This document shows positions 53,809-64,000 of a stretch of 64,000 bases of DNA, piece after piece. Under the pieces are notes generated by a model. That model was given only the letters and a program-made list of their open reading frames with translations. It was not told where the DNA came from and ran no database searches. The number at the start of each line of letters is the position of its first letter. Within the stretch, counting starts at the first letter, position 1. Source of the stretch: a bacterium (GTDB taxonomy: Bacteria; Patescibacteriota; Minisyncoccia; Phycocordibacterales; UBA5272); the NCBI GenBank assembly GCA_023267595.1, contig JAHFNB010000003.1, forward strand, positions 66,165 to 130,164, in the 5' to 3' direction. The translations under genes were made by a program, and so were the position numbers.

Positions 53809-53880
53809 TCCGTGGTAGCTCAGCGGTAGAGCAGCTCGCTGTTAACGAGTTGGTCGTAGGTTCGATCCCTACCCACGGAG
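53809..53880 (+). tRNA. tRNA-Asn (anticodon GTT)
   Basis: A manual cloverleaf fold works. The acceptor arms TCCGTGG/CCACGGA pair perfectly. The D-stem is GCTC/GAGC. The anticodon stem GCTCG/CGAGT carries the loop CTGTTAA. The T-arm is GTAGG-TTCGATC-CCTAC and the discriminator is G. No CCA is encoded. Confidence 0.9.
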
Positions 53881-55587
53881 CAGTATTGGACACACGTCCA
53901 CGAAAGCCTCATTTCGGTCTGAAATATCAATGATATTTTTAGGTTCGAACTGAGGATTTTTCGTTTTTGCTTGAAGAAGTCCTTTTTGAATTACTTCGTA
54001 CAAGATTCCCTTTGTACTACTTAGATTTTTTTCTTTTAATGTTAAGTTCGAACCTAAGAGACGTAATGCTTCCACCTTCTCATCATAAGTTCCATTTTCA
54101 ATTATTTCTTCAACTTCTACTAAGATTTCAAATTTGTCATCTACGCTCTTTGTAATCACCTTATCTCCTCGTTTAAGCCCCATTTTTGCCCTTAGATGGC
54201 CTATTTCTTCTTGGGTTTTAGCTATCCTTAAAGAAGTGTCTTCCTCATCAAATATTCCTTTTTGGTAGCCGTCTCTTATTTTTTGCTTCTCTTTCTCAAG
54301 TCGTTCTATTTTTTTAATATGACCTTCTTCTACTTCTCCCTTTAACTTTCCTTCTTCTCGTTCTAACATTACTATGCTACTAAGACACCAATCTTTTAAA
54401 GCTGGAGAGATTGCTAATGGTAGTATAAAGTTCTTTTTGAGATGTATGTCTATATCTGATTCCTTAACACTCCCTCCGGGGCACTCTCTATCTCTTTTTC
54501 GAGTACAGTGGTAGTAGATATAGCGAAGCTTTGTACTATTTTTTATCTTTGTTAAAGGTATTTTACATTTTGGGCAATCCTCCTTGTTTTTATATGAGAA
54601 TTTATACTTACAATTCAGACATATCATCTGTTCTTTCTTCTCTGCTGTTACAGACCCTCCACAATTACCACACAGCATAAACCTTTTATATGGGAATTCT
54701 TCTACATAGGTCCACGCTCTTTCTGCACCTGTTCTATGTATCATACTAAGTATCTTCTTATGCTCTTTTTCTGTTATCACTCTTGGAACATCTTTATTTA
54801 CTTCATATCTAACGAGATCTCCATTATCGTCTTTGCCGTAAAAGAACCCTGCGTAGAACGGATCCTTGAGCATGTAGTAGAAGCTTGATAGTTTTATTGC
54901 CACCCCACCAATATTCTTTCTTTGGGTTGTTGTTAAGTTATATTTTTCAACACTGAGTCTATGTAATTGTCTTACCGAGTATTTCTCACTAAGGAATAAC
55001 TTAAAGATGTTCCTTACAATACCAAATCTTTCTCTGTCAGGTAGAATCTTTCTTAACCCTTTTTCTCCTTTATCATTTAGATATCCTACCTTGGCAATTC
55101 CGCCCGGGTACCCCATTCTTCGTTTTTTAACAAGCCCGCGCATAACGTTTTCTCCCTTATTATCATTTTCCATCTTTGCTTGTATACAAAGCATATTGAA
55201 GAAGAATTTATCGCTTGGAGTATTGGAGAATATCTGTTGGTGGGTAATTATGTATTTAAGTTTTCCCTCATCCATCAAATCAATCAGCCTTCCTGCATCT
55301 CCAGCATTACGAGACAATCTATCTGGGTGCCATGTAATAATTCCATCGATCACACCTTTTTCTATTCCTCTTATCATTTGTTCAAATACTGGACGAGTTC
55401 TTGACTTCTTAGCTGATTTTGATTCACGAAATATACTTTCCTTCGGTATATGTACTTTGTATTCTTTTGCTAACTTTAGATTTTGTTCTATCTGTGACTC
55501 AATAGAAAGAACCTGTCTATCTTCTTGCTCACTTGATTTTCTACTATACTCTCCAAACTTTACTTTTGATAAGTCGTAATTTTTCAT
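53869..55587 (-). CDS. large serine recombinase (integrase)
   Basis: It has an N-terminal resolvase-type catalytic domain (YSRKSSEQEDRQ...ITWHPDRLSR), a recombinase domain and a Cys-rich zinc ribbon (CGNCGG...CLNCKYKF...CPKCK). Its 3' end overlaps the last 12 nt of tRNA-Asn. Confidence 0.85.
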   Translation of the reverse strand: MKNYDLSKVKFGEYSRKSSEQEDRQVLSIESQIEQNLKLAKEYKVHIPKESIFRESKSAKKSRTRPVFEQMIRGIEKGVIDGIITWHPDRLSRNAGDAGRLIDLMDEGKLKYIITHQQIFSNTPSDKFFFNMLCIQAKMENDNKGENVMRGLVKKRRMGYPGGIAKVGYLNDKGEKGLRKILPDRERFGIVRNIFKLFLSEKYSVRQLHRLSVEKYNLTTTQRKNIGGVAIKLSSFYYMLKDPFYAGFFYGKDDNGDLVRYEVNKDVPRVITEKEHKKILSMIHRTGAERAWTYVEEFPYKRFMLCGNCGGSVTAEKKEQMICLNCKYKFSYKNKEDCPKCKIPLTKIKNSTKLRYIYYHCTRKRDRECPGGSVKESDIDIHLKKNFILPLAISPALKDWCLSSIVMLEREEGKLKGEVEEGHIKKIERLEKEKQKIRDGYQKGIFDEEDTSLRIAKTQEEIGHLRAKMGLKRGDKVITKSVDDKFEILVEVEEIIENGTYDEKVEALRLLGSNLTLKEKNLSSTKGILYEVIQKGLLQAKTKNPQFEPKNIIDISDRNEAFVDVCPILLRG

Positions 55588-55612: not shown

Positions 55613-55789
55613 TTACTTATTAAGGCAAGTGACTATCTTATTTTGGTGATGTTTTTTCGCCAGAAGTGTAAGATGCGATAATGCTTCAGCAAACTCTAAC
55701 AAGTCTTGACGCTCTAACATAACCCCATAATCTCGGTAAATTATGGAGGACAGTTCTTTTAACTTGTAGTGTTTTGTATTTGCTGACAT
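55613..55789 (-). CDS. small putative DNA-binding protein next to the integrase (possible excisionase or regulator)
   Basis: The 58-aa product reads MSANTKHYKLKELSSIIYRDYGVMLERQDLLEFAEAL..., which is HTH-like. An AAAGGTGG RBS lies about 10 nt upstream. The longer track ORF starts further upstream. Confidence 0.3.
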   Translation of the reverse strand: MSANTKHYKLKELSSIIYRDYGVMLERQDLLEFAEALSHLTLLAKKHHQNKIVTCLNK

Positions 55790-55882
55790 GAATAGAAAAC
55801 CACCTTTCACCAGACAGGGCTCAGCCCTGAAACCTGTCCAGTGAAAGATGGGTTTTAATTGGGCTGAGATAGAATGCAAAAA

Positions 55883-55928: not shown

Positions 55929-56244
55929 CTTCTTCCAACCTTCGGTTTTCACAAAGGCAATCGACATGGCAGTAATTACTATACCGTCAAAAGTTTACTT
56001 CAAAGCATCCTACCTCGTTACTGTATTAGGATAATGGTTAGACAGATTACAGCTGTCTGCACCTGTAGACACTTAGTGTCTCACGGTTGTTTGCGGTCGA
56101 TTCATTCCAATATTGTTTTGTTCCTGTCTGATTATAATTGTAGCACCTTCATTATTCCACACAAGATGGCTCAAAATGTACCCTCGACCCACTTATTTAG
56201 TATCGTTTGATTCTTTCATTTTTTTCAATTAATCAAAGGTTTTT

Positions 56245-56385
56245 GCTCAAACTGATTTCGTTGCAGAAATCAGTTTTTCAATCACTGTGTGTGTTTTTGC
56301 GTTTGCTGATTACGTGTCAGAAATCAAGTTTTCAGCAAGTTTGGTCAATCTGATTTCGTTTCTTTTTTCAGTTTTTCAGTTTTGT
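56245..56385. repeat. array of CTGATTT/AAATCAG half-sites and TTTTCAGT direct repeats upstream of the CPBP gene
   Basis: AAACTGATTT-cgttgcag-AAATCAGTTT is a 10-bp inverted repeat. It is followed by GCTGATTACGTGTCAGAAATCAAG, TCTGATTTCGTTTC and TTTTTCAGTTTTTCAGTTTTG. Confidence 0.5.
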
Positions 56386-57377: not shown

Positions 57378-57527
57378 CACTGTAGCGGTTTACTTATGTC
57401 TCACTGGAGTCGCTCCGACAAGAGACTCCCCACCGTTGCGATAGACTTGCGTCCATCCATATCCAGTTTCCCAGACATGACCGCTACAGTGACTCCGATG
57501 GGGAGACTCTTGTACTGTAGCGGTTTT
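57378..57527. repeat. GC-rich non-coding segment with three copies of ACTGTAGCGGTT (direct, inverted, direct)
   Basis: CACTGTAGCGGTTT lies at 57378..57391. Its reverse complement GACCGCTACAGTG lies at 57479..57491. ACTGTAGCGGTTTT lies at 57514..57527. AGAGACTCCCC and GGGGAGACTCT motifs sit in between. Confidence 0.6.
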
Positions 57528-57607
57528 AATTGTTTGCCATGCCATGAATGGTTTAGGCTATAGGTTACATGTTATCAAATTTTATATCCTTTATCTATCT
57601 TATTTAA

Positions 57608-60205
57608 TCAATCAACTTCTTTTAAGATATCTAAAGCTTTTTGTGATCTAAGTAGTTTCATTATTGTCGGTGCATCTAACTTTTTATCTTTAAGTATCTT
57701 TGCAACTGATTCTCTCCATGTTAAATCTCCTGATTCACTGAAAGTATTTCTAATCTCCCTTATTGTCGAAAGTGCTTCGTTTGCCCACTTTCTGAAGTCT
57801 GACAGTCTCCATATAGATACTTCGTTTAAGTGTGGTACTGCTCCTTTTTTAACTTTATCAGCAGGCGTAATAAGCACAGGTATAATATTTGCTTTTTCAG
57901 ATATAGAGACATTCTTCTTTATCCAATCTGGGTGTGACGATACTTGTCTTGCTTTGTTGACGTCTATGGTCGCACCGTCTAAAGCTCCAGAATGATCTTC
58001 AAACACGATGCAGTTATCCGAATTAATCCACCAAGGATCAGGTGACCCATCACTTTCTTCTTTCCCTGATTGAAAGCCGAGCATCTCTCCTAATTGTTTA
58101 TGTGCATTTTCAAACGGTTTTGGGTTTGATGAATCCCTTGAATCTAACCCAGTTATTATTTCTGATTCTCTTCGTGAATATTTCCTTCCGTGGGTGGTTC
58201 CTAAGTTTGTTAGAATTTCTTCTATCCTTTCTATTTGCTCAAACACCATCTCTTCCTCAAGGTCTTTTTCTTTCATTGTTATGTCAGAGTATCGTCCAGC
58301 CAATGTTACAAGCCAAGGTATCCCCACAGCACATTCTTTAGCGTTACCAAATTCTTGTTTTGATCTTGTTTCAAAAACCTTATTACCGTTTGCTTTATAG
58401 GCTAAGTAAGCAGATGACCCTGCTAAATAATGCCAAAGTGCTCTATATCCACGTACGTTAGTGTCTTTAAGCTTAGAAAGAACCTTGTCTGCTTCAATAA
58501 GAGCAGATTCATAATCTTTTTGCCACAATTTCATTTGGTATGCAACTTCATGAGAAACTGATTCCTTTAGATCTTGCATTGCTGGAAAAGGCTCTTGAGT
58601 AACTGTTTTACGAGATTCAACAATCTGCTGGTTAACTTGTTCCCATTTTTCTCCATTTTCAAGAAAAACCTCTAAGTTCTCGACTATATCTTTGTTTGTT
58701 GTTTTTTGAGATTGTTCTATTCCGAATTTTAGTTCTGCTTGTAATTCAGGATGAAAGTATTTTCTGCGATTTTTATCCGCAAGGTAGTCAGGAAGTTCTT
58801 GACCAGATATTACCACGGCAGAATAATCCTCAAGTCCACGAGTGCATCTTCCTATGGCTTGTAGTACTCGTGTTTGAATACGTTCATTAAATAGTGCGTT
58901 AGCACCCATTCGAGACATTAAGAACCTTTCTTGTAAGTTCATTGCTCGTGGTAACCCTTCAACAAAAAGGAGTCGGCATTCATCTCCGGGGAAGTCTATA
59001 CCATCATAACGGTTTGCTACAACAACAGTTGCTTTTGATGAACTAACGAATGACTCTTTTGAAGTTTCAATGTCTTCAGATTTGAAAACAGAGTATCCAT
59101 GTTCTTCAACATGAGAAATAACTTCATCTCGCATTTTGTTACTTGGAACAAGAATAAGGCTTCTCTCGGTTTTTTCCATTAGGTTTATCCTGAGATCCTT
59201 CACTTCTTCCTCTTCGAGAGACATATCTGGGAAAATGAAGAACCTTCTCCCTACACCCCCAATTGGAACTGGCAGTCTATGTATACTTGTTCTTCCAACA
59301 AGACGCTCAAGGTCTCCTCCTTCTCCTAATGTTGCCGACATATAAATTCTCTGTTTTGCATTATTAAATGCTGGCAATGTCCAAGTTGGCGGTATTAATG
59401 GTCTTATTAATATCTCCTGTGATGAGAAATAAAGATGGCATGCATGAAGATGATCTTTAATCATGTTCCACGAATATACAAGGTCTGTATCTTTTGTAGA
59501 GACATCTAATATTTCAATTAGTTGATCCTTAATTTCAGAGAATTCAGATGTTGGTAGTTTATCTACCCAAGTCCGATCTGCTATACCATCAACTTCTCCT
59601 ATCAATCGAGAGTAGATAAGTGTCTCAAGGCGAGGTTTTAGCAAGTTTGCTATTGATGTATGAATAGTTGTATGTAGTGGATTTAATCGGTCTATCTTTA
59701 TGGACCATAATTCTGATATGTAGTTTTCTGCTGAATGAATGTCATCTAAGATTATTATTTCTGCATCATTAAAGAATGGACTACTGTTAAACAAGCTACT
59801 ATAGGTAGTAACAGCAATCTTGTCAGCATTTTTATATTCAGCACGTTCAGATGCGTTGTAATCTTTTGACGATCCTGTGAATCCATTAACACTTAGTCCA
59901 TACTTCTCATTTGCTTGATCCACAACTTGGTTAACTAATTGTTTTGTTGGGACAAGATAAACAATTCGCTCTTTATATTTCCTCCTCCTCCATTCTCCTA
60001 TTAGAAGGCCTGCGAGAGTTTTGCCGCTCCCCGTTGGTAATTGCATGGCCACATCAGGTAAATTTATAGCTGTCGCAACGTAGTTGTCCATCAGCTCCTT
60101 CTGGTGTGGTTGTACTGCTGGGTGTTTACGACGAGGAAGGTCCAGAAAGAGTTTTTCTGGTGTGTCTGGTACTGATTTAGGTTGTTCTGTTTCTTTAAAT
60201 GCCAT
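57608..60205 (-). CDS. SF2 DExH-box helicase (Cas3-like motif pattern) with an uncharacterised ~350-aa C-terminal domain
   Basis: The helicase motifs are I LPTGSGKT, Ia YLVPTKQLV, II IILDDIH, III YMSATLG and VI QAIGRCTRG. There is no N-terminal HD or other nuclease domain. The C-terminal region contains SPDPWWINSDNCIVFEDHSG, a possible but imperfect PD-(D/E)xK-like patch. It is the last gene of the hsdR-hsdM-hsdS operon. Confidence 0.75.
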   Translation of the reverse strand: MAFKETEQPKSVPDTPEKLFLDLPRRKHPAVQPHQKELMDNYVATAINLPDVAMQLPTGSGKTLAGLLIGEWRRRKYKERIVYLVPTKQLVNQVVDQANEKYGLSVNGFTGSSKDYNASERAEYKNADKIAVTTYSSLFNSSPFFNDAEIIILDDIHSAENYISELWSIKIDRLNPLHTTIHTSIANLLKPRLETLIYSRLIGEVDGIADRTWVDKLPTSEFSEIKDQLIEILDVSTKDTDLVYSWNMIKDHLHACHLYFSSQEILIRPLIPPTWTLPAFNNAKQRIYMSATLGEGGDLERLVGRTSIHRLPVPIGGVGRRFFIFPDMSLEEEEVKDLRINLMEKTERSLILVPSNKMRDEVISHVEEHGYSVFKSEDIETSKESFVSSSKATVVVANRYDGIDFPGDECRLLFVEGLPRAMNLQERFLMSRMGANALFNERIQTRVLQAIGRCTRGLEDYSAVVISGQELPDYLADKNRRKYFHPELQAELKFGIEQSQKTTNKDIVENLEVFLENGEKWEQVNQQIVESRKTVTQEPFPAMQDLKESVSHEVAYQMKLWQKDYESALIEADKVLSKLKDTNVRGYRALWHYLAGSSAYLAYKANGNKVFETRSKQEFGNAKECAVGIPWLVTLAGRYSDITMKEKDLEEEMVFEQIERIEEILTNLGTTHGRKYSRRESEIITGLDSRDSSNPKPFENAHKQLGEMLGFQSGKEESDGSPDPWWINSDNCIVFEDHSGALDGATIDVNKARQVSSHPDWIKKNVSISEKANIIPVLITPADKVKKGAVPHLNEVSIWRLSDFRKWANEALSTIREIRNTFSESGDLTWRESVAKILKDKKLDAPTIMKLLRSQKALDILKEVD

Positions 60206-60229: not shown

Positions 60230-61357
60230 TCAGACATTCTTAGAGAGTATTGATGAAAACAGGTCATCAATAAGGCCTGAAGATTCCCTTTGCTTTGCAC
60301 TAAAGACGAGTATTTCGTTAACTTTATCTGCAAATTCGTCTTGCTTTTCAATTGGTGGAACTATTACTTGAAGGTTTTTGAGATCCTCAGTATTTAAACT
60401 TTGAACAGTAACTCCTGTCTTTACCATTTTAAGAATCTCTTCCTTTCTCGTTTTAAGTTGTGTGTACATGAAAAGAGTATTTACTTTCTTTGGATCTAAG
60501 TTTATTAGAGATTTTAGATCCTGATTAATGGTAAGTTCTTTTTCATTTATTGCTATTGGTAATGTATGCTGAAGTATCCCACTTCTCGTCACTATAAGTA
60601 TACTGTTTGCTGGTATTATATTAGTTGCCGATTTTTCTATGGCGTCATAAGTTATATGGTCTTGAGAATCTGATATATAATCATTTTTCATATCTTTAGG
60701 AGAAACCCACGGTATCTCTCCATTCCAGAATAATTGATTGCTTTTCGAAGGAGTTCCACCTCCAACAAAATCGAAGTATTTAGTTAGTTTCCCTTTTTCC
60801 CACCCTTGTTCATTTTGCAAAGATGACCCAAACATCTTATCGAATACGGAAGGTATTAATTCAGACATTTTTTGATCTGCTTCAAATCTTTGTTTTTTTA
60901 ATCTCTCAGCTTCTTTTAAAGTTTTTACTATTTCCTTTTGCTCACTAATTTTAGGGAGATTAGAGATCTCATACTCAAGTATTTCTTTTAGTTTTACTGT
61001 TGGATAAGTGGCCCCCGTGGCACGGGACCCTAAGTATGAAAGAAAGTCATTATTCCAAGCAAGAATATAGAACAGGTATTCTATGTCGCACACACCTTCT
61101 TTTGGTATCAGTATTGCAAATGCATTTGAGACAACTTGTTCACTTCTTAGTAAGGTAATTGCACCTCTGGTTGGTCTCACTTTTGATATCAGAACTGAAT
61201 TACTTGGTGCTATCACAGCTCCAGACACAGAAGGCTTTTGCTTTTCAAGAATCTCCTTAGTGTTAATATCTATATCTCCAATTTCTATGTATGGAACTGT
61301 TCCAACTGAAGCTTTCTTTAGATCAATATCTTGAATTATGTCCTTAATTTTTAGCAT
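60230..61357 (-). CDS. hsdS: type I restriction-modification specificity subunit
   Basis: It has two target-recognition halves with conserved VRPTRG. The central and C-terminal conserved regions carry LPKISEQKEIVKTL and PPIEKQDEFADKV. Confidence 0.8.
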   Translation of the reverse strand: MLKIKDIIQDIDLKKASVGTVPYIEIGDIDINTKEILEKQKPSVSGAVIAPSNSVLISKVRPTRGAITLLRSEQVVSNAFAILIPKEGVCDIEYLFYILAWNNDFLSYLGSRATGATYPTVKLKEILEYEISNLPKISEQKEIVKTLKEAERLKKQRFEADQKMSELIPSVFDKMFGSSLQNEQGWEKGKLTKYFDFVGGGTPSKSNQLFWNGEIPWVSPKDMKNDYISDSQDHITYDAIEKSATNIIPANSILIVTRSGILQHTLPIAINEKELTINQDLKSLINLDPKKVNTLFMYTQLKTRKEEILKMVKTGVTVQSLNTEDLKNLQVIVPPIEKQDEFADKVNEILVFSAKQRESSGLIDDLFSSILSKNV

Positions 61358-61359
61358 AA

Positions 61360-62838
61360 TTATAGTTTATCTTGCAGTCTTTTTAATCCTTCAACTATTT
61401 CTTTCTCGAGATGCAATACCTCTTCAATAATTTTTTTAGGATCACGATGTGTTACTACTTGAGTGGTTGCTGGTTTATACCTTGAAGCAGTTAAGTTGTA
61501 ATCTTCACTTACAATTTCTTCTTTACTTACAAGCCAACTATGTGGACCCTCTTCTTTTTTACTGTATGCAGATACTAAATCTTTAAGATTGTTATTTACT
61601 GGGTCAGGGTGCCGTTTGTCATCAAGCGTAAAGCCGTCGCCAGTCACTTCATAAAACCAAACTTTCTCTGTCTTTCTTCCTTTTGTGTAGAAGATTATAG
61701 CTGTCTTCACTCCTGCGTATGGTTTAAATACTCCTGATGGCAAACTTACAACAGCGTCTATCTTAGAGGTATCCACAAGTAGTTGTCTCATTTTCTTGTG
61801 AGCTCCAGTCGAACCAAAGAGAACCCCTTCTGGTACAACTACAGCACATCTTCCTCCATCACTTAAATGATCGTACATGTACTTTAGGAAAAGAAGCTCA
61901 GTCTTTGTTGTACTTAGCCCTATATCTTCCTGTATTGAATCTTGATTTACATTTCCAGAGAATGGAGGATTTGCAAGAATGAGGTCATACTTCTTTTTCT
62001 TTTCTTCGGGTAGTGTGATGGGGTCGAAGTTTACTACGTTTGATTGTGCAAGATCGTGCAGGTAAAGGTTCATTACTGCAACCTTAATCATATCTGCATC
62101 ATTATCAAACCCATTTATTGCCTTAGATTTAAGGAATTCATATTGAGCTGGTGTTAGTTCGTCACCATGCTCGTTTCCTTGTGCGAGTTCTTCTTTTGAA
62201 GTATTTGTTCTCAGTATGTGCTTATAGGCTTCTATTAGAAATCCTGCTGTACCACACGATGGATCAAGTATTAAATCAGATGCTTTGGGTTTCGTTAGTT
62301 CAACCATCGCTTTAATAATGTGTCGAGGTGTTCTAAATTGCCCGTTGGTTCCTGATACGGCAATCTTATTCAAGAGATATTCATACATGTCTCCTTTAAT
62401 ATCAGTATCGTATTTCTCTGTATTGTTGTAGTCCATTCCGTCAATAAGACTTACTACAGATTTTAATGTTGGTCGATTATATATTTTAAGATGAGCCTGA
62501 CGGAACAAAGTCTTACCTGTGGGTGAAAGCTTTGGTAGTTCGTGTAAATGTTCGAAGACATCGGATATTGTATTGTAAAGTTCATCTCCTGAAAGGCGAC
62601 TGATTACTCGCCAACTGAACTTACTTATATTTCCATTGAAGATACTTTCATATTTTTTACCTGAGAGACTGGCCATTCTTTCCTGCTGTTCATCTACTTC
62701 TGTTAGTGATTTTATGAACATCAAGTAGCTAATCTGTTCAATAGCAGTCATTGGATTATTCACTCCACCAGCAAACAACTCGTCCATGATACGATCTACT
62801 TTTTGTTTTATGTCTGAGTTTGTGAATTGTAGTTTCAT
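61360..62838 (-). CDS. hsdM: type I restriction-modification N6-adenine DNA methyltransferase subunit
   Basis: LDPSCGTAGFL is motif I and LILANPPFSG is motif IV (NPPF). The 492-aa protein has an HsdM N-terminal domain. Confidence 0.9.
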   Translation of the reverse strand: MKLQFTNSDIKQKVDRIMDELFAGGVNNPMTAIEQISYLMFIKSLTEVDEQQERMASLSGKKYESIFNGNISKFSWRVISRLSGDELYNTISDVFEHLHELPKLSPTGKTLFRQAHLKIYNRPTLKSVVSLIDGMDYNNTEKYDTDIKGDMYEYLLNKIAVSGTNGQFRTPRHIIKAMVELTKPKASDLILDPSCGTAGFLIEAYKHILRTNTSKEELAQGNEHGDELTPAQYEFLKSKAINGFDNDADMIKVAVMNLYLHDLAQSNVVNFDPITLPEEKKKKYDLILANPPFSGNVNQDSIQEDIGLSTTKTELLFLKYMYDHLSDGGRCAVVVPEGVLFGSTGAHKKMRQLLVDTSKIDAVVSLPSGVFKPYAGVKTAIIFYTKGRKTEKVWFYEVTGDGFTLDDKRHPDPVNNNLKDLVSAYSKKEEGPHSWLVSKEEIVSEDYNLTASRYKPATTQVVTHRDPKKIIEEVLHLEKEIVEGLKRLQDKL

Positions 62839-62839
62839 T

Positions 62840-64000
62840 TTATTCTACGATAGTTAATGCTGGGCTTGTGCGTACTGTATCAAACACTACCTTAATCTTT
62901 GATTCAAAGCCATTGATATATGTACGAGTTCCTCCAAGTTGTGAAAATGGTGGCTCATCAAGGAAAGAGTAGTCTCCCTCTTCGAATTTCGCTAATAGTT
63001 TTGGACTCTGACTTAATTGCTTAATAAGTATCTTTAGAAGACGAGCTTGTTCCAGATTAAGATCTTGGTCAGTTTTAATACTCTCTACAAGTTCCAACAA
63101 CTGCTCTTCTCTTGTTGGTAATTTAGCTACACCAAGACCGGCTTTTACAAAGTCTAATAGTCCTCCAAACACACGGTAAGCACGAGAAAGGTTTCTTTCA
63201 TTGAAGTATTCTGTTGGTTTATCAAATACATTAGTCTTAAGATATTCTGATATTTCTTCTTCGTCGCCTTCACTAATCTTATCTGCAAACCCTTTGTTCT
63301 CTTCCACTATTTGCTTTATGATTTTCTCCCATTTTGTAATGTAAACAAGGCGGTCTACTTTTTCTCCTTCAGGCCCGACTTCAATCATTTCTGTAAGAAC
63401 GATTTCATCAGTACCTGTGTATGTTTGTACTTCCGGTGGAGGAGGTGGAGGTGTTCCTGTGCCACCACCATTATTCCCCCCAGTTGAAACAGGAAGCGGG
63501 GCTTCAAAGTCATATTCTTCCTCGAAATACTTTACGACTTCACAAAAGTCTTGAACGAGAAACTCTTTCTTTTCTTCTCCATTAGGGAAGGTGTATTTTC
63601 TTGTTCCTCTGCCTTTTATTTGAATGTATGTTGTGGGAGAGGCAATCGGACGAGCAAGTATAATATTTTGAATCTCGGGGCAATCAAAGCCAGTAGTTAA
63701 CATATCTACACTTACTGCAACACGAGGATAGAAGTTCTCATCCTTTCTAAATTGCTTAGCTAAATCTGAAGCACCTTGAACTCTTGATGTTATAACCTCT
63801 GCAAACTTTCCATTGTGTTCTGGTGTCATTCTATTTAATTCTCGGGCAAGAGCGACTGCGTGGTTCTGTGAGACTGCAAAAATCACTGACTTACCTATTG
63901 CCCCGTCAGGTGTTTTGAGCGCGTTCTGTAAGAACTGTGTACAAATCAATTCATTTCTCTTTGGTATAAGAACTCGTTTTTCAAGTTGAGAGATTCTGTA
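62840..64000 (-). CDS. hsdR: type I restriction enzyme R subunit, C-terminal part; 5' end runs off the window end
   Basis: Helicase motif VI QIKGRGTR and a DMLTTGFDCPE helicase C-terminal domain are present. The reading frame stays open through position 64000 (...YRISQLEKRVLIPKRNE-LICTQ...), so the gene continues beyond the window. Confidence 0.8.
   Translation of the reverse strand, partial: YRISQLEKRVLIPKRNELICTQFLQNALKTPDGAIGKSVIFAVSQNHAVALARELNRMTPEHNGKFAEVITSRVQGASDLAKQFRKDENFYPRVAVSVDMLTTGFDCPEIQNIILARPIASPTTYIQIKGRGTRKYTFPNGEEKKEFLVQDFCEVVKYFEEEYDFEAPLPVSTGGNNGGGTGTPPPPPPEVQTYTGTDEIVLTEMIEVGPEGEKVDRLVYITKWEKIIKQIVEENKGFADKISEGDEEEISEYLKTNVFDKPTEYFNERNLSRAYRVFGGLLDFVKAGLGVAKLPTREEQLLELVESIKTDQDLNLEQARLLKILIKQLSQSPKLLAKFEEGDYSFLDEPPFSQLGGTRTYINGFESKIKVVFDTVRTSPALTIVE

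What the first reader, a model, noticed from the sequence alone, without database searches (positions are those of the whole stretch)
53809..55587. tRNA-Asn with a large serine recombinase overlapping its 3' end; T-arm-like inverted repeats mark the attachment region
The tRNA-Asn(GTT) is intact. A 572-aa serine integrase on the opposite strand ends 12 nt inside it. Just downstream, the 13-mer TTAGGTTCGAACT, which resembles the tRNA T-arm GTAGGTTCGATCC, occurs at 53939..53951 and as a perfect inverted copy at 54045..54057. This is the classic footprint of an element that integrated into a tRNA 3' end and restored it with its own copy. The cargo to the right (iteron-like DNA, membrane proteins, helicase, type I RM) is typical of a defence island. 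I could not find the other att site within the window.
Basis: partly seen in the sequence, partly recalled or inferred. Interest (0 to 1): 0.6.

Follow-up and report, generated by a model that had tools for sequence, protein, structure and literature searches.

The report
Serine-integrase defence island in tRNA-Asn
A 12-kb mobile defence island sits at the very end of a tRNA-Asn gene in a candidate-phyla-radiation bacterium, inserted by a large serine integrase whose own gene carries extra copies of the tRNA-like DNA word that the enzyme appears to recognise at its insertion site.

Summary
The tRNA-Asn(GTT) is intact. A 572-aa large serine recombinase (LSR) gene ends inside it.

This is an integrated element of about 12.2 kb (window 53882 to about 66050). 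It carries a type I RM system, a PDC-S28 helicase and a LOOT RNA. The second att site lies 2 kb past the window end.

It does not rebuild the tRNA. attL and attR share only GGAGC, the last bases of the tRNA, so the tRNA body is chromosomal. The int gene spans attP. Integration replaces a 14-codon tail (584-aa form) with 'RG-stop' read from the tRNA antisense strand.

The 'T-arm-like repeats' are two copies of a DNA word, GTTCGAACCT. In 30 relatives (mean 40% aa identity) it is invariant at synonymous sites, while codons vary at almost all the other conserved residues. A third copy is the tRNA T-arm in attL, 11 nt from the core. The P arm holds it in attP, 16 nt from the core. This +5 offset is the LSR attP/attB rule.

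Relatives across Parcubacteria abut tRNA-Asn in the same way. I rate it a new variant of a known kind. The function of the internal copies is inferred, not shown.

The parts
53809..53881 (+). tRNA-Asn(GTT), intact. It serves as attB for the element. Its acceptor 3' strand and T-arm form the B arm.
   Evidence: ARAGORN; Rfam RF00005, 69.6 bits. Acceptor pairing tccgtgg/ccacgga is all Watson-Crick.
53877..53881 (.). attL common core GGAGC: the last 3 nt of the acceptor stem, the discriminator G and 1 nt. It is the only sequence shared with attR (window-equivalent 66046-66050). The crossover dinucleotide should lie within it.
   Evidence: attL ..cccacGGAGC|agtattgg; attR ..catgtGGAGC|cgtaaaaatc.
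53858..53865 (-). B-arm copy of the motif (int-sense TCGAACCT; this is the tRNA T-stem 5' strand plus T-loop). It starts 11 nt from the core.
   Evidence: It holds the same position in 11 related loci with tRNA-Asn.
53869..55587 (-). Large serine recombinase, integrated form, 572 aa. The last two codons and the stop (R-G-*) are read from the tRNA antisense strand.
   Evidence: PF00239 E=5e-24; PHROG 95 integrase E=5e-55. AF2 model with pLDDT 83 matches full-length SPbeta SprA, PhiC31, Bxb1 and A118 integrases, E from 1e-19 to 1e-8. R16, S18, R90 and R93 are invariant.
53941..53950 (-). Internal motif copy 'site A' (int-sense GTTCGAACCT, codons xxG TTC GAA CCT = FEP). It lies 83 nt from the T-arm copy.
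   Evidence: TTC/GAA/CCT in 30 of 30 genes (codon entropy 0). The preceding base is G in 30 of 32 genes, whatever the amino acid.
54044..54053 (-). Internal motif copy 'site B' (int-sense GTTCGAACtT; family consensus GGTTCGAACCTA, codons GGT TCG AAC CTA = GSNL, in a different reading frame). It lies 103 nt from site A.
   Evidence: TCG in 29 of 29 genes (background 17%) and AAC in 30 of 30.
55613..55879 (-). Small ORF (88 aa) directly upstream of int on the same strand. Homologues sit in the same position in three related elements. Candidate regulator or directionality factor (inferred).
   Evidence: 36-38% identity to ORFs in L026, L029, L028. No Pfam, PHROG or PADLOC hit.
56239..56378 (.). 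Three imperfect 42-nt direct repeats, each with an internal hairpin. Function unknown.
   Evidence: 74-76% identity; spacing 54 and 44 nt.
57440..57559 (-). LOOT RNA (Rfam RF03000), a structured RNA that belongs to the conserved backbone of this element family.
   Evidence: 58.4 bits; gathering score 46.4. Present in 10 of 13 family loci and absent from 129 kb of control loci.
57608..60205 (-). DEAD/DinG-like helicase, 865 aa. Full-length match to the candidate defence protein PDC-S28.
   Evidence: E=1.4e-119, residues 6-851; Pfam DEAD/ResIII/Helicase_C_2.
60230..61357 (-). Type I RM specificity subunit HsdS.
61360..62838 (-). Type I RM methyltransferase HsdM.
   Evidence: MTase_I E=9e-149.
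62840..64000 (-). Type I RM restriction subunit HsdR; C-terminal part only. The 768-aa gene runs to window-equivalent 65146. A 267-aa ORF follows (65209-66012), then the P arm (66022-66045) and the attR core (66046-66050).

Best explanation
**What it is.** Window 53882 to window-equivalent 66050 (12.17 kb) is an integrated mobile element of a Parcubacteria/Minisyncoccia bacterium. A large serine recombinase inserted it at the extreme 3' end of tRNA-Asn.

**The att sites.** Recombination between attP and attB happened within GGAGC, which spans the acceptor end and the discriminator. The whole tRNA body stays chromosomal and only the trailer is swapped.
- The B arm is the tRNA acceptor 3' strand plus T-arm. 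The word TCGAACCT starts 11 nt from the core there.
- The P arm carries the same word (TAGAACCT here) 16 nt from the core.
- A 5-bp outward shift of this kind distinguishes attP from attB half-sites of LSRs.

**The int gene spans attP.** The free form would encode 584 aa ending ..ILLHMLNEVRTLVLTTE. Integration replaces the last 14 codons with R-G-stop from the tRNA antisense strand, giving 572 aa.

**The internal copies.** Two more copies of the word lie inside int, in direct orientation, 83 and 186 nt from the T-arm copy. They sit in two further reading frames and are kept invariant at synonymous sites.
- My best reading (inferred, about 45%) is that they are extra integrase half-sites. They would act as accessory, arm-like sites that help assemble or regulate the recombination complex.
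- The swap of the Int tail may bias directionality (inferred, about 30%).

**Cargo and backbone.** The cargo is a type I RM system plus a PDC-S28 helicase. A LOOT RNA and a small ORF upstream of int belong to the conserved backbone.

**Shown versus inferred.** Shown: the anatomy, membership in the LSR family, the family-wide tRNA association, the nucleotide-level constraint and the two states of the gene. Inferred: binding of Int to the motif, the current mobility of the element and the role of the tail swap.
For: **LSR identity.**

**Structural variation at the tRNA.** In one sample two contigs branch inside the tRNA with exactly k-1 = 140 nt of overlap. The alternative contig (L004) shares a 10.7-kb left flank that is identical apart from two tRNA bases, and it has no island.

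**Family pattern.** Among 80 metagenomic relatives, the int stop lies 12-41 nt inside an opposite-strand tRNA-Asn in 11 loci. It lies inside tRNA-Gln in 4 loci and tRNA-Trp in 1. Further cases are tRNA genes interrupted by a group I intron.

**The motif.** All 32 genes have TCG, AAC, TTC and GAA at the motif codons, and 30 of 32 have CCT. Of 59 conserved residues, 52 (including the catalytic R16 and S18) have codon entropy of about 0.8 or more. The five motif codons have entropy 0.

**Third copy and the two states.** In 14 loci without a tRNA, the ORF reads on into xxVRT[WYF], which is GTTCGAACCT, always 29 codons after FEP. That is 88 nt, against 83 nt to the T-arm copy. Proteins P0005, P0043, P0045 and P0107 have the same tails.

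**The element's own P arm.** The core-to-motif gap is 16 nt in attR and 11 nt in attL. The reconstructed attP-form tail HMLNEVRTLVL resembles P0005's RMMNEVRTCVL.

**Right flank is chromosome.** The ECF sigma/DUF5667/PG-binding/sortase cluster is conserved in relatives that have no island.

**Cargo.**. **LOOT.**
Against: - I did not find the predicted empty site (..cccacGGAGCcgtaaaaatc..) or the circular attP junction in any contig. The only island-free allele (L004) has a different, imported trailer.
- attR is seen on one assembly only. I could not read the last 2.3 kb of that contig.
- The P' arm shows no inverted copy of the motif, so the site is not symmetric.
- The +5 rule is inferred from sequence, and across elements as well as within this one. 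No binding data exist.
- The 17-nt repeat at 66194-66210 offers a simpler classical boundary.
- The P-arm copy in this element has one mismatch (TAGAACCT).
- Site B in this window also has one mismatch to the family consensus.
Confidence: 0.72

Rival explanations
1. Classical tDNA island. The crossover is in the T-stem, the element carries its own copy of the last 17 nt of the tRNA and restores the gene, and the island runs from 53866 to the 17-nt direct repeat TCCCTACCCACGGAGCA at window-equivalent 66194-66210.
For: There is a perfect 17-nt direct repeat 12.3 kb away (blastn-short E=2e-4). Two other family loci show 13-15-nt repeats of the tRNA 3' end: L036 and L067. L004 diverges from the window exactly at 53873, inside this repeat.
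Against: The DNA left of that repeat (..gtgaccgg) shows no resemblance to the family's conserved P arm. In contrast, 66022-66050 matches the P arm in sequence and in spacing (16 nt), and it gives the expected read-through peptide. The 143 nt between 66051 and 66193 resemble the native tRNA trailer of L004 and of relatives: a terminator hairpin followed by an inverted, split copy of the tRNA 3' end. L004's 3' end is Nomurabacteria-type, so that breakpoint reflects import of foreign DNA and not this element.
Confidence: 0.12
2. The conserved GTTCGAACCT copies inside int act at the RNA level, or bind a factor other than Int. Examples are a long-range helix between the two self-complementary copies in the int mRNA, a T-arm mimic, antisense interplay with tRNA transcripts, or operators for the small upstream ORF.
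For: GTTCGAAC is self-complementary. RNAalifold on 29 sequences predicts only the pairing of copy A with copy B. In this window the two copies form a perfect 13-bp duplex. int and the tRNA are convergent and overlap.
Against: The conserved word is asymmetric: CCT is conserved on one side only, and the common denominator with the T-arm is TCGAACCT. Four loci have GGCTCGAACC at site B with an unchanged site A, which is an uncompensated C.A mismatch. No covariation is available, and the alifold energy is only -2.75. The same word sits in the att arms at the 11/16-nt spacing expected for protein half-sites.
Confidence: 0.2
3. The element is a fixed, no longer mobile remnant. The integrated-form Int (572 aa, tail truncated by the tRNA) is inactive and the island is now ordinary chromosome.
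For: No attP circle or exact empty site was found among contigs carrying the flanking gene. The integrated form lacks the 14-aa tail. Site B and the P-arm copy each carry one mismatch to the consensus.
Against: The int ORF is intact with all catalytic residues. Two independent samples carry it 100% identical. The same population holds an island-free allele at this tRNA. Most family members in the databases are in the same integrated configuration, so the truncated tail is the normal prophage-like state.
Confidence: 0.25

Closest known systems
Large serine integrases of phages and integrative elements (SPbeta SprA, PhiC31, Bxb1, A118/LI Int, TP901-1)
   Same: The domain order is the same: a resolvase catalytic domain with the Ser nucleophile, a recombinase domain, a zinc ribbon and a coiled coil. 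The predicted fold matches over about 570 columns. The common core is short (5 bp). An arm motif sits 5 bp further out in attP than in attB. The geometry rule itself is established knowledge from Rutherford, Van Duyne and colleagues (2013), recalled and not re-read here.
   Different: The target is the 3' end of a tRNA gene. The int gene spans attP, so integration changes the protein's C-terminus. Two extra copies of the arm motif lie 83 and 186 nt from the T-arm copy, inside the coding sequence. Canonical LSRs need only about 40-50-bp sites and no accessory sites.
tRNA-gene genomic islands with tyrosine integrases (Islander/TIGER type)
   Same: The integrase gene abuts the tDNA and the cargo island lies downstream of the tRNA. 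The tRNA stays functional and the site is a hot spot with alternative occupants.
   Different: The recombinase is of the serine family. Hudson et al. [quoted passage not shown] The main text of the LSR census by Durrant et al. 2022 (PMC10083194) never mentions tRNA. Hackl et al. 2020 (bioRxiv 10.1101/2020.12.28.424599) report that 27 of 937 integrative elements in Prochlorococcus (tycheposons and cryptic elements) carry an LSR. Here there is no long tDNA duplication made by this element: only GGAGC is shared.
Myxophage Mx8 intP/intX (attP inside the integrase gene)
   Same: attP lies within the 3' end of int, and integration into a tRNA locus replaces the C-terminal codons. The prophage therefore encodes a different integrase form. 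This is established knowledge, recalled and not re-read here.
   Different: Mx8 Int is a tyrosine recombinase. Here the replaced tail is 14 aa, the substitute is 2 aa plus a stop read from the tRNA antisense strand, and the functional effect is untested.
res sites of Tn3/gamma-delta resolvase and Sin (accessory recombinase-binding subsites)
   Same: Several copies of a recombinase-type binding word lie in a row next to the crossover site, at spacings of 83 and 103 nt.
   Different: Those are small serine recombinases acting on directly repeated res sites within one molecule. Here the copies are single asymmetric words, not dimer sites. They lie on one side only, inside a coding sequence, and no binding has been shown.

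Membership tests
Large serine recombinase (serine integrase) | N-terminal resolvase-type catalytic domain with a Ser nucleophile and conserved Arg/Asp residues | tested here: met
   PF00239 E=4.9e-24. YSRKSS with R16 and S18, and DRLSR with R90 and R93, are invariant in 30 homologues.
Large serine recombinase (serine integrase) | Recombinase domain, zinc-ribbon domain and an inserted coiled coil C-terminal to the catalytic domain | tested here: met
   PF07508 is precomputed for many homologues. Weak PF13408 hit, below the Pfam gathering threshold, and conserved Cys pairs C306/309, C323/326 and C338/341. The AF2 model has long helices at 395-442 and 448-468. Foldseek matches full-length SprA, PhiC31 and Bxb1.
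Large serine recombinase (serine integrase) | Short common core in attL/attR, and an attP half-site motif displaced about 5 bp outward relative to attB | tested here: met
   The core is GGAGC only. The core-to-motif gap is 11 nt in the B arm and 16 nt in the P arm. Across the family the distances are 83 and 88 nt. This is sequence inference only.
Large serine recombinase (serine integrase) | Catalyses attP x attB recombination without accessory sites | not testable with these tools
The conserved extra motif copies raise the question of whether this clade departs from the rule.
Classical tDNA genomic island (Islander definition) | Tyrosine-family integrase | tested here: not met
   The integrase is of the serine family.
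Classical tDNA genomic island (Islander definition) | The island is bounded by the regenerated tDNA and a displaced tDNA fragment (a direct repeat of tens of nt) | tested here: inconclusive
   A 17-nt fragment exists at window-equivalent 66194-66210. The family-type P arm and core lie 144 nt before it, so the fragment probably records an older event.
Anti-phage defence island | Carries recognised defence systems | tested here: met
   A complete type I RM system (REase_I, MTase_I, Specificity_I) plus a full-length PDC-S28 candidate.
Accessory-site serine recombinase systems (res-like) | Additional recombinase-binding subsites next to the crossover site that are required for the reaction | not testable with these tools
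   Only the sequence signature was tested: two extra motif copies with zero synonymous variation. Binding and requirement are unknown.

The most novel reading that the evidence does not exclude
A widespread clade of large serine integrases in candidate-phyla-radiation bacteria does not use the minimal two-half-site att logic. It would instead use an extended attP of about 250 bp. In this attP, phased copies of the zinc-ribbon half-site word (a tRNA T-arm mimic) are written into the integrase's own coding sequence in different reading frames. Integration itself rewrites the enzyme's C-terminus. Together these would give a self-contained, possibly RDF-independent, control of directionality at a tRNA 3' end.
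Probability: 0.25. Interest if true: 0.8.

Novelty: new variant of a known kind. Interest (0 to 1): 0.6.

Why it matters
**A target class that censuses have largely missed.** Serine integrases are valued as genome-engineering tools because their att sites are short and need no cofactors. Their natural targets are thought to be mostly protein-coding genes. This locus and its relatives show a large, environmentally widespread clade that targets the conserved 3' end of tRNA-Asn, with some members at tRNA-Gln or tRNA-Trp. Gene-cluster-based LSR censuses would miss this target class.

**An unusually clean overlapping code.** The recognition word is copied inside the enzyme's own gene and held invariant against synonymous drift, in two reading frames in the integrated form and a third in attP-state genes. 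If the copies are accessory sites, they would be new for large serine integrases and could explain directionality in this clade.

**Practical uses.**
- The two C-terminal signatures separate integrated from free elements in metagenomes: ..LLRG(QDSNLEP..) against ..VRTW..
- The association gives the orphan LOOT RNA a genomic context.
- It identifies a route by which defence systems move in CPR bacteria.

Tried and rejected
1. **17-nt repeat as attR.** I first took the repeat at 66194-66210 as attR and placed the crossover at the T-loop/T-stem junction. I dropped this when the family P arm and the read-through tail were found 144 nt upstream.
2. **L004 as the empty site.** I first treated it as the empty site and predicted a 21-kb insert followed by the PAP2 region. 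I rejected this for two reasons. The PAP2 and 87-aa proteins exist on that one contig only. L004's tRNA is also a chimera with a Nomurabacteria-type 3' end.
3. **Walking beyond the window.** The HsdM look-up reached window-equivalent 72838. As a result, 72839-75140 and the cause of the shared contig end stay unread.
4. **Genome-contig scan.** The source MAG is not among the species representatives, so the scan served only for synteny.
5. **Viral-contig scan.** It gave only distant or partial relatives, so there is no support for a phage.
6. **Cargo comparison.** Apart from the type I RM genes in one locus (L101), the cargo is not shared with other family islands. Only int, the small upstream ORF and LOOT recur.
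7. **A motif that tracks the target tRNA.** The Gln-targeting loci carry the same GTTCGAACCT, so there is no covariation to exploit.
8. **Conserved RNA structure in the int 3' region.** Nothing appeared beyond the motif-to-motif pairing.
9. **Tandem 'iterons'.** TRF found nothing notable. The repeat finder found three imperfect 42-mers.
Full report
**1. The observation**

ARAGORN finds one tRNA in the window, tRNA-Asn(GTT) at 53809-53881 on the + strand. Rfam agrees. The ORF 53869-55587 on the - strand encodes 572 aa. Its stop codon is the reverse complement of 53869-53871, in the 3' strand of the T-stem.

TTAGGTTCGAACT lies at 53939-53951 and its exact reverse complement at 54045-54057. A search for the palindrome TAGGTTCGAACCTA with up to 2 mismatches finds only these two sites in 64 kb, against 0.15 expected. 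Both copies are inside the ORF, in the codons for FEP and GSNL.

**2. The protein**

- Pfam gives Resolvase (E=5e-24) and a weak recombinase zinc ribbon, below the gathering threshold. PHROGs gives 'integrase' (E=5e-55).
- In an alignment of 30 homologues (37-61% identity), the serine-recombinase catalytic residues are invariant: R16 and S18 in YxRKSS, R90 and R93 in DRLSR. So are three Cys pairs.
- A profile search of the PDB hits SPbeta SprA over residues 9-312.
- An AlphaFold model (pLDDT 83) shows the catalytic domain, the recombinase domain, the zinc ribbon, a long coiled coil and a folded C-terminal region. Foldseek aligns it over about 570 columns to full-length SprA, PhiC31, Bxb1 and A118 integrases.

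It is a large serine recombinase. Names attached to homologues place the organism in Parcubacteria/Minisyncoccia.

**3. Evidence that the DNA to the right of the tRNA is variable**

- The source contig (ENA k141_7355775, 141 kb) was recovered, and so was a second sample's contig that carries the island.
- Looking up the flanking RelA/SpoT protein found a further contig, L004. Its 10.7-kb left flank is identical to the window except for two bases in the tRNA acceptor 3' strand. The tRNA there is followed by a terminator, 500 nt of non-coding DNA, an 87-aa ORF and a PAP2 gene. There is no integrase.
- In that sample, the island contig and L004's contig overlap by exactly 140 nt, which is k-1 for k=141. 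That is a graph branch inside the tRNA, so both arrangements co-exist in one population.
- L004 is not the simple empty site. Its tRNA joins the native 5' acceptor strand (tccgtgg) to a 3' strand (tcgcgga-CCA) identical to that of Nomurabacteria relatives, whose own 5' strand is tccgcga.
- L004's tail is 88% identical in DNA to those relatives, while the rest of the genome is about 71% identical.
- The PAP2 and 87-aa proteins occur on that single contig only. L004 therefore appears to carry imported DNA that recombined inside the tRNA.

**4. The family**

A metagenome scan returned 80 related loci.

- In 11 of them the int stop lies 12-41 nt inside an opposite-strand tRNA-Asn. In 4 it lies inside tRNA-Gln, and in 1 inside tRNA-Trp.
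- Several 'tRNA-less' cases turned out to be tRNA genes interrupted by a group I intron.
- Many contigs end about 110 nt after the int stop.
- The conserved C-terminus ..SVCPTLLRG, continued in some proteins as QDSNLEPTP.., is the translation of the tRNA acceptor and T-arm read backwards.

**5. The 'T-arm-like repeats' are a DNA-level signal**

- All 32 family genes use S=TCG (background 17%), N=AAC, F=TTC and E=GAA, and 30 of 32 use P=CCT. The base before TTC is G in 30 of 32, whatever the amino acid. The residue before S varies (G/R/C/A/S), while its third codon base is T or C in all 32 genes.
- As a control, I took 59 residues that are at least 90% conserved in 30 genes (mean aa identity 40%). 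Fifty-two of them, including the catalytic R16 and S18, have codon entropy of about 0.8 or more. The five motif codons have entropy 0. L515 (CTA 22/28) and K520 (AAA 26/27) are partly constrained.
- The conserved word is GTTCGAACCT. It occurs twice in direct orientation, 103 nt apart, in two reading frames. In integrated loci a third copy is the tRNA T-arm (..TCGAACCTAC), 83 nt further on, or 92 nt in two loci.

**6. A third state and the true att sites**

- In 14 loci with no adjacent tRNA, the ORF continues past ..LL into xxxxVRT[W/Y/F]. In most of them the DNA there is again GTTCGAACCT (some carry one to three mismatches), in a third frame. It always starts 29 codons after FEP. That places it 88 nt from site A instead of 83, which is 5 bp further out.
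- Closer homologues have the same tails, for example P0005 with TLLRMMNEVRTCVL. I read these as genes in the attP state.
- With that template, the element's own P arm is recognisable at window-equivalent 66022-66050: AGGTTCTAACttcgttcaacatgtGGAGC|cgtaaaaatc.
- attL reads cccacGGAGC|agtattgg. Only GGAGC is shared.
- In the int-sense strand the motif starts 11 nt after the core in attL (TCGAACCT, the T-arm) and 16 nt after it in attR (TAGAACCT).
- Joining the P arm to int gives a 584-aa protein ending ILLHMLNEVRTLVLTTE. It shares 12 of 21 residues with P0005's tail.
- A 5-bp outward shift of the zinc-ribbon-domain motif in attP relative to attB is the established geometry of LSR sites. I cite this from memory (Rutherford et al. 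2013; not re-read).
- The island therefore spans 53882-66050 (12.17 kb). The tRNA body is chromosomal, and integration swaps 14 codons of int for R-G-stop.

**7. What lies beyond attR**

- The segment 66051-66193 resembles the native tRNA trailer seen in L004 and in relatives: a terminator hairpin, then an inverted copy of the tRNA 3' end split by a 24-25-nt hairpin.
- It ends at a direct 17-nt copy of the tRNA 3' end at 66194-66210. I read this as the trace of an older event. It remains the basis of the main rival model.
- Further right lies an ECF sigma/DUF5667/PG-binding/ice-binding/sortase cluster. This cluster is conserved, without any island, in related genomes.
- Both independent assemblies stop at window-equivalent 75140. 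I could not read the last 2.3 kb.

**8. Cargo and backbone**

- PADLOC identifies a complete type I RM system and a full-length PDC-S28 helicase. HsdR has 80-89% identical relatives binned in other phyla.
- Other family islands do not share this cargo, apart from the type I RM genes in one locus (L101).
- Rfam finds a LOOT RNA at 57440-57559 on the - strand. It is the only LOOT hit in the window.
- Ten of 13 family loci scanned have a LOOT RNA, and in most of them it lies 1.9-2.5 kb upstream of int on the same strand. Seven control loci totalling 129 kb have none.
- The 88-aa ORF just upstream of int has positional homologues in three elements.
- Three imperfect 42-nt repeats lie at 56239-56378.

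**9. How it most likely works**

Shown:
- an LSR gene spanning its own attP;
- a tRNA-3'-end target;
- two states of the gene;
- a recognition-like word in both arms at the 11/16-nt spacing;
- two further copies under strict nucleotide constraint.

Inferred:
- Int binds the word, presumably through its zinc-ribbon domain.
- The internal copies act as accessory half-sites.
- The tail swap distinguishes the free and integrated enzyme forms.

The RNA-level rival is a helix between the self-complementary copies. It is weakened by three results. The conserved word is asymmetric. Four loci carry an uncompensated change at site B. RNAalifold finds nothing beyond that pairing. It is not excluded.

**10. 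Comparison with what is known**

- The island type, a defence island at a tRNA gene, is ordinary.
- The recombinase is not what that type normally uses. Hudson et al. [quoted passage not shown] The main text of Durrant et al. 2022 does not mention tRNA.
- Hackl et al. 2020 report 27 of 937 integrative elements in Prochlorococcus (tycheposons and cryptic elements) with an LSR, so the combination is not wholly unprecedented.
- attP within int recalls Mx8 intP/intX, which involves a tyrosine integrase (cited from memory).
- I found no description of conserved arm-motif copies inside an LSR gene, nor of the link between LOOT RNA and this integrase family. My literature access was limited.

Verdict: new variant of a known kind; interest 0.6.

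Noticed in passing
window 57440-57559 (-); L026 7974-8091, L029 7921-8039, L037 7358-7476, L035 6238-6363, L067 5784-5899 and 14551-14668, L048 7471-7586, L063 5600-5726, L028 7673-7786, L034 3986-4103: The orphan Rfam family LOOT RNA (RF03000) occurs in 10 of 13 loci that carry this integrase family, in most of them 1.9-2.5 kb upstream of int on the same strand. It gives no hit in 129 kb of control CPR loci or in the rest of the window. It appears to be a backbone component of these elements.
   Followed up: partly
L028 11729-11942, L034 11717-12008, L042 11752-11934: The tRNA gene that abuts the integrase is interrupted by a group I intron (Rfam RF00028, 60-92 bits). This is why ARAGORN did not call it. 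The T-arm and acceptor end still overlap the int 3' end.
   Followed up: partly
L004 10753-10867; window-equivalent 66051-66210 (L017 6629-6788); L008 8150-9115: The native trailer of tRNA-Asn in this lineage is a terminator hairpin followed by an inverted copy of the tRNA 3' end (acceptor strand plus T-arm half) split by a 24-25-nt hairpin. Nomurabacteria relatives carry 2-3 tandem copies with a period of about 470 nt. In the source genome a 143-nt unit is flanked by 16-17-nt direct repeats of the tRNA 3' end. It may be a miniature element or the scars of earlier integrations.
   Followed up: partly
L004 10693-10767: In the island-free allele the tRNA-Asn is a chimera. It has the native 5' acceptor strand and a Nomurabacteria-type 3' strand with an encoded CCA, giving two G.U pairs. 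The DNA that follows (87-aa ORF, PAP2) is 88% identical to Nomurabacteria, against about 71% for the rest of the genome.
   Followed up: partly
window 60230-64000 and L017 7693-9999: The type I RM proteins have very close relatives in distant bins. HsdR is 87-89% identical to proteins assigned to Burkholderiales and about 80% identical to proteins from Jorgensenbacteria and Gracilibacteria. HsdM is 77% identical in locus L101. This suggests recent inter-phylum transfer, or binning errors.
   Followed up: no
window-equivalent 75140 (end of ENA contigs k141_7355775 and k141_419439): Two assemblies from different samples both stop at the same position, 21.3 kb to the right of the tRNA. A repeat or another variable junction probably lies there. 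I could not read that sequence.
   Followed up: no
L048 11640-11660 versus L067 10030-10050: The same element (99.9% identical) from two metagenomes differs by an 8-nt indel (CCGAGTAG) exactly in the att core. L048 has the canonical 16-nt attP spacing and a read-through ORF. L067 has 8 extra tRNA-like bases, and a full tRNA-Asn lies 9.5 kb away. This is unexplained.
   Followed up: partly
window 55613-55879 (-): The small ORF immediately upstream of int has positional homologues (36-38% identity over 39 aa) in L026, L029 and L028, and no family annotation. It is a candidate regulator or recombination directionality factor.
   Followed up: partly
window 56239-56378: Three imperfect 42-nt direct repeats (74-76% identity), each containing the hairpin CTGATTTC..GAAATCAG, lie between two unannotated small ORFs.
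   Followed up: no
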